Shown here piece by piece: positions 17,323-32,000 of a DNA stretch of 32,000 nt. Both the position numbers and the translations under genes were made by a program. The notes beneath the pieces were generated by a model. That model was given only the letters and a program-made list of their open reading frames with translations, was not told the origin of the DNA and ran no database searches. The stretch comes from Campylobacter cuniculorum DSM 23162 = LMG 24588 (GTDB taxonomy: Bacteria; Campylobacterota; Campylobacteria; Campylobacterales; Campylobacteraceae): contig NZ_CP020867.1 in assembly GCF_002104335.1 (NCBI RefSeq), positions 1,059,206 through 1,091,205 on the forward strand, in the 5' to 3' direction. Positions within the stretch are counted from its first letter, which is position 1, and every line of letters starts with the position of its first letter.

Positions 17323-17559
17323 ATGCAAGAAATTATCCCAAATTATCGTTTAGATTTACAAGGTGAGCCTTGTCCCTATCCTGCCATTAGAACTTTAGAA
17401 GTGTTGCCTGAATTAAAAAAGGGTGAAATTTTAGAAGTTTTAAGTGATTGTCCCCAAAGCATTAATAATATTCCTATTGATATAAAAAATTATGGTTATG
17501 AGATGCTTAAAATCGAGCAACTTGGAGCGACAATTCGTTATTTGATTAAAAAGCCTTAA
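17323..17559 (+). CDS. fdhU: TusA/SirA/YedF-like sulfur(selenium)-carrier protein, equivalent of C. jejuni FdhU
   Basis: 78 aa. CPxP motif GEPCPYP. Starts 1 nt after the fdhT stop. Confidence 0.8.
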   Translation: MQEIIPNYRLDLQGEPCPYPAIRTLEVLPELKKGEILEVLSDCPQSINNIPIDIKNYGYEMLKIEQLGATIRYLIKKP

Positions 17560-17648
17560 ATTAAAATGATATATTGTTTTATGGTAAAAATTTTTATGAT
17601 TATTTATGAAATTTTAGCCGTTTGTTTATAGTGTTAAATTTTTAATTA

Positions 17649-17661
17649 AAATTGCACTTAA
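17649..17661 (+). repeat. left copy of the 13-bp direct repeat AAATTGCACTTAA at the island boundary
   Basis: Exact match to 31712..31724. The internal intact gene copy has AAATTGCATTTAA at 19922..19934. Confidence 0.9.
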
Positions 17662-17762
17662 AATTTAAATTTTTATTTTTAATGATGTATTTTTGTTTTG
17701 AAATTGCAATATTTATAGAAATAATACCTTATGGACTTTTAGAAGGAACTATTTCGAAATGA
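17649..17762 (+). pseudogene. orphan 3' end (last ~33 codons plus TGA) of the polytopic membrane-protein gene, whose intact copy is 19556..20035
   Basis: 17649..17928 is near-identical to 19922..20195. The differences are one C/T, one G/A and a 6-nt AAGAAA insertion after the ATG. There is no 5' part upstream; upstream sequence is the fdhU flank. Confidence 0.85.
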
Positions 17763-31816: not shown

Positions 31817-32000
31817 AGAGCTTGAAGGTAAAGATAAAAGCCTTATATCCCATTCTTTTGCGTAATTTAAAATGCCTTGATTTGAAGATGAGATATATTG
31901 TTGATAAAAAGAGCTTTTTTGAAATAATTCGAAAGCTTTTTTGCCGCTAAGGGCTATGGTTTGAATTTTAGCTTGATTTAAAATCAAGGTCAAATCATTG
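31754..32000 (-). CDS. 3' end of an unidentified chromosomal gene (continues beyond the window)
   Basis: Open frame from the window edge to the stop at 31754..31756 (...LSLPSSSSANAKFKDEDLIKEYKKIKH*). No in-frame stop upstream within the window. I cannot assign a family. Confidence 0.5.
   Translation of the reverse strand, partial: NDLTLILNQAKIQTIALSGKKAFELFQKSSFYQQYISSSNQGILNYAKEWDIRLLSLPSSSSANAKFKDEDLIKEYKKIKH

What the first reader, a model, noticed from the sequence alone, without database searches (positions are those of the whole stretch)
17640..17762. Island is circularly permuted: one gene is split at a 13-bp direct repeat present at both ends (left junction)
The intact membrane-protein gene 19556..20035 is 480 nt long. 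At the right island end a copy runs for exactly 379 nt (31346..31724) and loses similarity immediately after AAATTGCACTTAA. At the left end, similarity to the same gene starts at AAATTGCACTTAA (17649..17661) and continues for the remaining 101 nt to the stop (17662..17762). The two parts sum to 379 + 101 = 480 nt. Both junction copies carry C where the internal copy has T (19930), so they are two halves of one allele. A circular element that recombined with the chromosome through a site inside this gene would leave exactly this structure (flank-att-3' part ... 5' part-att-flank). No integrase, transposase or relaxase is encoded in the island.
Basis: seen in the sequence. Interest (0 to 1): 0.8.

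Follow-up and report, generated by a model that had tools for sequence, protein, structure and literature searches.

The report
Integrase-less cassettes inserted at 13-bp site
A 14-kb island in Campylobacter cuniculorum is two gene cassettes with no integrase of their own, inserted in tandem by a crossover at one 13-base sequence inside a membrane-protein gene; the same sequence was used at a second chromosomal site, so an unidentified enzyme appears to move toxin/immunity-type genes around.

Summary

I found three further things.
- The island is two core-delimited units in tandem: unit A is 17649-19921 (2,273 bp) and unit B is 19922-31711 (11,790 bp). The 'intact' gene at 19556-20035 is their junction.
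- The same genome has a second island of 8,033 bp at an unrelated intergenic site. It shows the same split of the same gene at the same 13-mer.
- Other strains have a different right junction at the same chromosomal position. There a lipase gene is cut at a core-like sequence.

Chance 13-nt matches between the cassettes and the chromosome are abundant. Repeated use of this one 13-mer therefore points to sequence-specific reciprocal recombination of circular cassettes.

No recombinase is encoded in any unit or in the flanks. The site is not the Campylobacter difH site, and it forms no hairpin. The cargo matches the region between the primase gene and the T6SS cluster on C. jejuni/C. coli megaplasmids.

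No circular form has been observed, and the enzyme is unknown.

The parts
17323..17559 (+). fdhU (TusA-family sulfurtransferase); the last chromosomal gene before the island
   Evidence: Pfam TusA in the gene table. Named FdhU/YedF (ARJ56679.1).
17560..17648 (.). Left chromosomal spacer (flank of attL)
   Evidence: Identical in the draft assembly L002 and 99.5% identical in the island-free contig L001 up to the core.
17649..17661 (+). attL core AAATTGCACTTAA
   Evidence: The same position is the junction in nine other contigs, L002-L010.
17662..17762 (+). M3: the 3' 101 nt of the membrane-protein gene M, with no 5' part
   Evidence: It is 100% identical (with the core) to the left end of the second island.
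17649..19921 (+). Unit A: a 2,273-bp cassette measured core to core. It carries M3, T5 (96 aa, 17759-18049), M' (18130-18588), two further T5 fragments (18670-18939, 19269-19475), a 72-aa membrane ORF (18932-19150) and M5.
   Evidence: Its two ends (1.14 kb and 1.12 kb) are the two ends of the 8,033-bp second island L059 2621-10666.
19556..20035 (+). Intact M gene (159 aa). It is the reconstituted attP-like junction between unit A (which supplies M5) and unit B (which supplies M3). The core lies at 19922-19934 (T allele).
   Evidence: The gene is contiguous in the same form on C. jejuni/C. coli plasmids.
19922..31711 (+). Unit B: an 11,790-bp cassette measured core to core. It carries M3; T438 (20032-21348); the 454-aa, 1152-aa and 428-aa genes; a duplicated 86-aa + 580-aa module; Lipase_3 N-terminal fragments with small membrane proteins (29476-31265); and M5.
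   Evidence: It is homologous to the primase-to-T6SS region of megaplasmids.
31346..31724 (+). M5: the 5' 379 nt of gene M at the right island end. It reads on into the flank as a 156-aa hybrid ORF (31346-31816).
31712..31724 (+). attR core AAATTGCACTTAA
   Evidence: The same junction is present in L047, L049 and L051.
31725..31753 (.). Right chromosomal spacer
   Evidence: Contiguous with the core in the island-free contig.
31754..32000 (-). 3' part of udg (DNA-deoxyinosine/uracil glycosylase family); the first chromosomal gene after the island
   Evidence: Pfam UDG. Homologues are named.

Best explanation
The 14-kb island between fdhU and udg of Campylobacter cuniculorum consists of two non-autonomous cassettes inserted in tandem.

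Each cassette, when circular, carries one intact copy of a small membrane-protein gene (M). Each entered the chromosome by a single reciprocal crossover at the 13-bp sequence AAATTGCAYTTAA, which lies inside M and also occurs once in the target spacer. Integration splits M. Its 3' 101 nt end up at the left end and its 5' 379 nt at the right end. A second cassette inserted at the same core rebuilds an intact M at the internal junction.

The crossover is sequence-specific and is catalysed in trans by an enzyme not encoded in the cassettes. This enzyme is inferred and has not been identified. Candidates are a recombinase of the host chromosome, or one from the conjugative plasmid/ICE family that carries the same cassette arrays.

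The cargo is toxin/immunity-like. It includes fragments of Lipase_3 toxins, families of small membrane proteins, and homologues of genes that flank T6SS clusters on Campylobacter megaplasmids.

Shown: the junction anatomy, the empty site, the second island, the tandem structure, the plasmid homology, and the lack of any detectable recombinase. Inferred: the circular intermediate, the enzymatic specificity, and the cargo function.
For: - Junction anatomy is exact, and the core occurs 3 times against 0.06 expected.
- An island-free contig has one core between the two flanks, with full synteny on both sides.
- A second island (L059 2621-10666, 8,033 bp core to core) lies between a flhB-like gene and a PepSY-like gene. 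Its junctions are ...cataaatAAATTGCACTTAA-M3 and M5-AAATTGCATTTAA-tttctgctc. Its hybrid product is the annotated 134-aa protein ARJ56613.1.
- Island 2 shares both of its ends with unit A (95.5% over 1.14 kb and 99.55% over 1.12 kb). Unit A is therefore a discrete unit, and the window holds an A+B tandem.
- In only 40 kb of chromosomal DNA, 65, 264 and 160 positions of unit A, unit B and island 2 have chance exact matches of at least 13 nt. Microhomology alone therefore does not explain three uses of one 13-mer.
- The un-permuted form exists: M is contiguous on 15 Campylobacter plasmids. A metagenome contig, L012, reads lipase-fragment 3' end, intact M, T5. It has 11 mismatches in 758 nt to the predicted circle junction.
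- No recombinase was found with Pfam, NCBIfam or PADLOC, or in the precomputed Pfam tables.
Against: - No recombinase has been identified, and no circular molecule or excision product has been observed directly.
- Both known insertion sites are in one species, and the empty form of the second site was not found.
- The alternative right junction (type X) matches the core at only 11 of 13 positions. It could be a plain microhomology deletion, which would show that illegitimate recombination also acts here.
- The core is AT-rich and about one chance copy per genome is expected, so the target sites need not be evolved att sites.
- The protein sequence across the core is not conserved in distant M homologues.
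- The sister taxon's fdhU-udg spacer has only a loose resemblance to the core, so the core in the empty site could be an excision scar rather than an ancestral attB.
Confidence: 0.65

Rival explanations
1. The topology is the same (a circle plus a single crossover), but no dedicated recombinase is involved. Short-repeat, RecA-independent or short-homology recombination joins the circle and chromosome, as reported for the integrase-less microcin H47 island of E. coli.
For: - No recombinase is found in or near the cassettes.
- The H47 island excises and integrates without an island-encoded recombinase, and none of 16 host site-specific recombinases was required (PMC3191183, PMC5426353).
- The type-X junction uses an interrupted microhomology.
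- The arrays are full of other recombination scars, such as truncated lipase and T5 fragments and fusions like P0028.
Against: - Chance matches of 13 nt or more between cassette and chromosome are very common, and the cassettes have homologous copies hundreds of bp long elsewhere in the genome (L015). Even so, the same 13-mer was used at two unrelated sites and for the tandem junction.
- The junctions are clean and reciprocal.
Confidence: 0.2
2. The incoming circle was a whole conjugative megaplasmid or ICE that recombined with the chromosome at the core. The backbone was later lost by homologous recombination between the repeated cassette modules, leaving only the array.
For: - The cassette array, including a contiguous M with the same core, is cargo of 35 Campylobacter plasmids. 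It sits just downstream of the DUF5710/Toprim gene and, on pGPT21-005_1, next to the T6SS cluster.
- An ICE-like locus with the same array type exists in this genome (L015).
- Repeated modules of 230-300 nt that could delete a backbone are present.
Against: - Three separate units (A, B and island 2) carry no trace of plasmid backbone.
- Unit A is only 2.3 kb and shares both ends with island 2, which fits small discrete circles better.
- This model still needs the same sequence-specific crossover at the core.
Confidence: 0.1
3. The cassettes are IMEX-type elements that use the host XerH recombinase at the chromosomal dif site.
For: They lack their own recombinase, insert in tandem, and the core has weak dyad symmetry (TTAAA-TTGCA-TTTAA).
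Against: - The Campylobacter difH consensus TTGAAAACTRTAATTTTCAA (Table 2 of PMC2731167) has no match in the window at up to 3 mismatches.
- Two different intergenic sites are used, about 66 annotated protein accessions apart. A chromosome has one dif site.
Confidence: 0.03
4. The split is a coincidence of array ends or an assembly artefact.
For: The region is highly repetitive, and draft assemblies break there.
Against: - An independent draft contig covers attL at 100% identity (L002).
- attR is seen in three other samples.
- The empty-site contig is 36 kb long. In it no 31-base stretch across the junction could come from an occupied genome.
- The second island is in a complete genome, and its hybrid ORF is annotated in two assemblies.
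Confidence: 0.02

Closest known systems
Campbell-type site-specific integrative elements (prophages and genomic islands flanked by att direct repeats)
   Same: One core is present in the empty site and direct copies at both ends. The integrated form is circularly permuted relative to the free form. Tandem insertion occurs at the same site, and a secondary site is used.
   Different: There is no integrase or excisionase in the element. The smallest unit is 2.3 kb and holds only small membrane-protein genes and gene fragments. attP lies inside a cargo-type coding sequence. The targets are AT-rich spacers between convergent genes rather than tRNA genes.
Microcin H47 genomic island of E. coli (PMC3191183, PMC5426353)
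   Same: It is a small island carrying antagonism-related cargo and flanked by direct repeats. It encodes no recombinase, and its mobility depends on functions supplied by the cell.
   Different: The H47 repeats are extensive and imperfect, with several crossover segments. Here the shared sequence is one 13-16-bp core. For H47, excision and integration were shown experimentally; here they are only inferred.
IMEX elements (CTX/TLC phages, the gonococcal island) exploiting Xer at dif
   Same: These are integrase-less elements that integrate in tandem using a host enzyme.
   Different: The site used here is not difH, and two chromosomal sites are used.
Integron gene cassettes, and the cis-mobilizable elements (CIMEs) of ICEs
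   Same: They are small non-autonomous units delimited by recombination sites, stacked in tandem, and recombined by an enzyme encoded elsewhere.
   Different: There is no attC-type hairpin and no IntI/attI platform. No cognate ICE with the same att site was identified; the ICE-like locus L015 lacks the core.
Polymorphic toxin/immunity arrays with orphan modules (Rhs, CDI, Maf, T6SS effector islands)
   Same: The arrays hold truncated toxin genes and small putative immunity genes that share highly conserved recombination modules. They are exchanged between species and between plasmids and chromosomes.
   Different: Such arrays are thought to diversify by homologous recombination in conserved segments. 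Here whole array segments appear to relocate as circles through one specific 13-mer.

Membership tests
Site-specific integrative island (Campbell model) | Identical short direct repeats at both ends, and a single copy at the unoccupied site | tested here: met
Site-specific integrative island (Campbell model) | The same core is used in independent insertions (other site, tandem copies) | tested here: met
   The second island L059 2621-10666 has different flanks. The A+B tandem in the window has a core at 19922.
Site-specific integrative island (Campbell model) | Element-encoded integrase/recombinase | tested here: not met
   No recombinase family was found in any island protein with Pfam, NCBIfam or PADLOC. 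The gene tables show no Pfam hit for island 2.
Site-specific integrative island (Campbell model) | Detectable circular excised form | not testable with these tools
   Only indirect evidence is available: M is contiguous on plasmids, and L012 matches the predicted junction but comes from another strain.
IMEX (Xer/dif-exploiting element) | Integration at the chromosomal dif site, with a dif-like attP | tested here: not met
   The difH consensus from PMC2731167 is absent at up to 3 mismatches, and two distinct sites are used.
Integron cassette | attC imperfect inverted repeat that folds as a single-stranded hairpin, with an adjacent intI/attI | tested here: not met
   Single-stranded DNA folds of attP and attB are no better than shuffles (z +1.1 to -0.8). 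No integrase is present in the window.
CIME / integrative mobilizable element dependent on a helper ICE | A helper element in the same host with the same att site and a cognate integrase | tested here: inconclusive
   An ICE-like locus (L015) and related plasmids carry the same array type. L015 has no copy of the core, and no integrase could be linked to the site.
Transposon / insertion sequence | Transposase, terminal inverted repeats, and a target-site duplication created from target sequence only | tested here: not met
   No transposase was found. The repeated 13-mer belongs to the element's own gene on plasmids. The ends are two halves of one gene, not inverted repeats.
H47-type recombinase-less island | Flanking direct repeats and no island-encoded recombinase | tested here: met
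H47-type recombinase-less island | Excision and integration shown to be independent of RecA and of known site-specific recombinases | not testable with these tools
   This needs genetics in C. cuniculorum or a surrogate host.
T6SS-associated effector/immunity array | Recognisable toxin domains paired with small immunity-type genes | tested here: inconclusive
   Lipase_3/Mbeg1-like domains occur in paralogous full-length genes. In the window only N-terminal fragments ending at GFRGTE are present, each followed by a 112-113-aa membrane protein. The large window proteins have no family hit.
T6SS-associated effector/immunity array | Genetic linkage to T6SS core genes | tested here: inconclusive
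   Linkage is met on plasmid pGPT21-005_1, where the array abuts tagH/tssM/hcp/vgrG. It is not met in the window. C. cuniculorum is reported to have a T6SS elsewhere in its genome (PMC9676060).

The most novel reading that the evidence does not exclude
Campylobacter has a previously unrecognised site-specific recombination system. Its only cis requirement is a roughly 13-bp core inside an immunity-like membrane-protein gene. The system shuttles integrase-less toxin/immunity cassettes of 2-12 kb as circles between T6SS megaplasmids or ICEs and chromosomal spacers. It stacks them in tandem, and it splits or rebuilds gene M (and its translationally coupled downstream gene) with each event. The enzyme would be either a new type of recombinase or a known host enzyme acting on a non-canonical site.
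Probability: 0.35. Interest if true: 0.8.

Novelty: new variant of a known kind. Interest (0 to 1): 0.6.

Why it matters
Toxin/immunity and T6SS effector arrays are usually assumed to diversify by homologous recombination and by riding on plasmids or integrase-bearing islands. Here the anatomy suggests that segments of such arrays move on their own as small circles, using one short sequence and a borrowed enzyme.

If this is confirmed, three things follow:
- It would explain how effector/immunity repertoires spread between megaplasmids and chromosomes, and between Campylobacter species.
- It would add a non-dif example of integrase-less integrative elements in Campylobacterota.
- It would provide a defined 13-bp site and three natural substrates with which to search for the responsible recombinase.

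Tried and rejected
- **Xer/dif.** The Campylobacter difH consensus from PMC2731167 is absent from the window at up to 3 mismatches.
- **Folded single-stranded att site.** Neither attP nor attB forms a significant hairpin.
- **Core-like sites at other cassette boundaries (integron-like model).** Only the three known sites match at up to 3 mismatches, which is fewer than chance would give.
- **Recombinase search.** Pfam, NCBIfam and PADLOC on the island proteins and Pfam on the window flanks found none.
- **GC skew** follows gene orientation and was not informative.
- **Collection scans.** JGI metagenome scans (two patterns) and an IMG/VR scan for M3 or M5 sequences returned nothing.
- **GTDB genome scan with an M-family alignment.** It found the conserved N-terminus in many Campylobacter and enterohepatic Helicobacter species, but none of those loci holds the core.
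- **Exact-protein look-ups that failed.** The attR hybrid ORF, P0012 and P0172 are not on record. The second island was reached only through P0335.
- **Candidate extra junctions.** P0005 turned out to be a prophage insertion in M. P0007 turned out to be a poly-T frameshift. Neither is an att junction.
- **Not attempted.** I did not predict structures of the large cargo proteins.

Full report
**Observation**

The window comes from Campylobacter cuniculorum. Its proteins are ARJ56679-56691 of strain DSM 23162 = LMG 24588, and it is 100% identical to draft contig JHZL01000011.

The ORF 19556-20035 is 480 nt long and encodes a 159-aa multi-pass membrane protein. I call this gene M. A base-by-base comparison gives these results:
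- The right copy, 31346-31724, is identical over 379 nt apart from C versus T at 31720/19930. Identity is lost directly after AAATTGCACTTAA.
- The left copy begins to match at 17649 and runs to the stop at 17762, with 2 mismatches in 114 nt.
- The 13-mer AAATTGCAYTTAA occurs three times in the window, against 0.06 expected.
- The repeats extend beyond the gene on the island side. 31228-31724 matches 19438-19934, and 17649-18038 matches 19922-20305.

**The empty site**

An exact-protein look-up of FdhU returned a 36-kb contig (L001, also fetched as L045). In it fdhU is followed 130 nt later by udg on the opposite strand.

The spacer reads ...gtgttaaatttttaattAAATTGCATTTAAgttttataaaaaatttgtg... 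That is the left flank, one core and the right flank, with housekeeping synteny for 10 kb on each side.

No 31-base stretch across this junction could come from an occupied genome, so it is not an assembly chimera.

Nine other contigs show the occupied left junction. They all break 30-60 nt into M3, as expected at a repeat.

**Tandem structure and a second island**

Cluster members of M include a 134-aa C. cuniculorum protein, ARJ56613.1. It is identical to M through ...FFIKLHL and then continues ISALFSNF*.

Its locus (L059, CP063091.1 1583828-1604034) lies 66 annotated protein accessions upstream of fdhU. It sits between a flhB-like gene and a PepSY-like gene. The junctions are:
- left: ...ctttgatttcataaatAAATTGCACTTAA followed by M3;
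- right: M5 ending ...ttttattAAATTGCATTTAA followed by tttctgctc....

The core-to-core distance is 8,033 bp.

The left 1.14 kb of this island matches window 17649-18778 at 95.5%. The right 1.12 kb matches window 18817-19934 at 99.55%. The second island is therefore a larger version of the window segment 17649-19921.

It follows that the window island is two core-delimited units in tandem: unit A of 2,273 bp and unit B of 11,790 bp. The 'intact' M gene is the junction rebuilt from A's M5 and B's M3.

**Why this points to sequence specificity**

The same 13-mer inside M has been the crossover point at two unrelated chromosomal spacers and at the tandem junction.

In only 40 kb of chromosomal DNA, 65, 264 and 160 positions of unit A, unit B and island 2 have chance exact matches of at least 13 nt. 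The genome also holds homologous cassette copies hundreds of bp long (L015). Generic short homology therefore does not explain the repeated choice of this one 13-mer.

**A third junction type**

A look-up of UDG gave three kinds of right-hand junction. All join the right flank at the same position:
- the empty form;
- the M5 form (window, L047, L049, L051), with the C allele and a run of seven A in the flank;
- a form (L046, L048, L050, L052) in which a Lipase_3 toxin gene is cut at ...GAATTAAATTATATTT|AAGTTTTATAAAAAATTTG.

The lipase gene has the GHSLGG motif and is 98.6% identical to the start of a 1263-aa gene in L015. The intact gene reads AATTAAATTATATTTTAAATC at that point, which matches the core at 11 of 13 positions.

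Samples with this right end have the ordinary M3 left end (L004/L048 and L009/L050).

This form is either the use of a secondary att-like site or a microhomology deletion ending at attR. I cannot tell which. Its flank haplotype (T at the variable position, six A) equals the empty site rather than the M-type attR.

**Alleles**

- attL has T in eight other contigs;
- attR has C in samples whose attL has T;
- island 2 has C on the left and T on the right.

All occupied left junctions have AAAA before TTGCA, whereas the empty site has AAA. This is probably homopolymer variation.

**No enzyme found**

- None of the island proteins hits a recombinase, transposase or relaxase family in Pfam, NCBIfam or PADLOC.
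- No island 2 gene has a recorded Pfam hit.
- The window flanks encode only housekeeping proteins.
- Unit A contains only M-family membrane proteins and fragments of the T438 N-terminus, so nothing in the cargo is needed in cis.
- The Campylobacter difH consensus (PMC2731167) is absent from the window, and two sites are used. Xer/dif is therefore not supported.
- attP and attB form no significant single-strand hairpin.
- No core-like sites mark the other cassette boundaries.

**Source and nature of the cargo**

The array T5-fragment / M' / T5-fragment / M / T438 / 454-like / 1152-like / 428-like is collinear with a region of 35 C. jejuni and C. coli plasmids of 72-192 kb, many of them conjugative. 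The region always lies just downstream of a DUF5710/Toprim gene, and M is contiguous there.

On C. coli pGPT21-005_1 the array runs from that gene to the T6SS cluster (tagH, tssM, hcp, tssB/C, vgrG), and homologues of most window island proteins lie in that stretch.

A third C. cuniculorum locus (L015) is an ICE-like region with the same Toprim gene and full-length Lipase_3 genes, but no core.

M3 and the following gene are nearly identical between C. cuniculorum and C. coli, which indicates recent exchange between species. The M family, with an almost invariant first 38 residues, occurs in many Campylobacter and enterohepatic Helicobacter species. C. cuniculorum is reported to carry a T6SS (PMC9676060).

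The toxin/immunity function of the cargo is an inference from these associations.

**Un-permuted form**

Metagenome contig L012 reads lipase-fragment 3' end, intact M, T5 (MKEIIKYY...). It has 11 mismatches in 758 nt to the junction predicted for an excised A+B circle. It comes from another strain. It shows that this arrangement exists, but it cannot distinguish a circle from a different tandem order.

**Ancestry of the target**

A sister taxon (UDG 76% identical) has a 42-nt fdhU-udg spacer, AAATTTATTCAAGTTTTGATTAAG... This resembles AAATTGCATTTAAGTTTT only loosely. Whether the core in the empty site is ancestral or an excision scar remains open. Either way a reciprocal exchange at the core is implied.

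**Comparison and verdict**

The anatomy is that of Campbell-type site-specific integration with tandem and secondary-site insertion, but without an element-encoded integrase.

The closest described cases are:
- the recombinase-less microcin H47 island of E. coli (PMC3191183, PMC5426353);
- IMEX elements;
- CIME and integron cassettes.

The window element fails a defining feature of IMEX elements (dif) and of integron cassettes (attC/IntI). A cognate helper element, which would define a CIME, could not be shown.

I rate it a new variant of a known kind. I put the sequence-specific, trans-catalysed circle model at about 0.65. The main rival is recombinase-independent short-repeat recombination.

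Noticed in passing
window 19913-19921 and 31703-31711; L053 9669-9677; L055 ~6358; L056 ~7091; L047/L049/L051: A poly-T tract directly upstream of the core inside M varies in length (T7, T8 or T9) between copies and strains. The shorter forms shift the reading frame so that M terminates at the TAA of the core (for example the 125-aa C. coli/C. jejuni proteins P0183 and P0184). This could be phase variation or decay of M at the recombination site.
   Followed up: partly
proteins P0174, P0175, P0176, P0182 (C. cuniculorum, ENA/UniRef); corresponds to window 19919-19934: Some M alleles read FFVKCNLKF instead of FFIKLHLKF. The simplest DNA change is TTGCA to TGCAA, which is the reverse complement of the centre of the quasi-palindrome TTAAA-TTGCA-TTTAA. 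This was seen only at protein level; no DNA with this allele was retrieved.
   Followed up: partly
L046 10529-11421, L048, L050, L052 (right flank of other strains); L015 19011-20462: An alternative right junction exists. A Lipase_3 toxin gene is truncated at AAATTATATTT|AAGTTTT, exactly where the M5 junction lies in the window. The full-length 1263-aa copy is in the ICE-like locus.
   Followed up: yes
window 18012-18243, 19438-19669, 31228-31459; L015 9881-10114; plasmids: A module of about 230 nt is 93-98% identical among cassettes. It comprises the last codons ...KEFSxFMIV of the upstream ORF, an 80-nt spacer and the first 113 nt of M-family genes. It is about 95% identical to C. jejuni/C. 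coli plasmid copies, while the rest of each M-family gene diverges. It looks like a homologous-recombination module for swapping cassette halves.
   Followed up: partly
window 17759-17762 and 20032-20035: The stop codon of M overlaps the start codon of the next gene (ATGA) at both M3 copies. This suggests translational coupling of M with the T5/T438 gene. At attL the coupled upstream part of M is missing.
   Followed up: no
window 25904-27459 versus 27493-29484: There is an internal duplication with divergence. The 3' end of the 1152-aa gene plus the 428-aa gene recurs as an 86-aa ORF plus a 580-aa lipoprotein-like gene (repeat families D3, D5-D8, D11-D13). On plasmid pGPT21-005_1 there are three tandem 428-aa paralogues next to tagH.
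   Followed up: partly
window 29841-30642 versus L015 11727-12527: An 802-nt segment is 99.75% identical between the fdhU island and the ICE-like locus roughly 590 annotated protein accessions away. The segment holds a lipase N-terminal fragment ending GFRGTE plus a 112-aa and a 113-aa membrane protein. This indicates very recent exchange between loci.
   Followed up: no
L015 1-9500 (CP063091.1 ~1030500-1039981): This is an ICE- or plasmid-like region. It has a 1662-aa polyvalent protein (LPD3, PBECR1, ART-PolyVal, PBECR3), SocA_Panacea, a P22_portal-like gene and DUF5710/Toprim_3, and it lies directly next to a cassette array.
   Followed up: no
L014 337-1754 (C. jejuni/coli GCA_001495175.1): An M homologue is interrupted after codon ~91 by a prophage carrying a Peptidase_S24 repressor and phage tail genes. 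This disruption of M is unrelated to the core.
   Followed up: no
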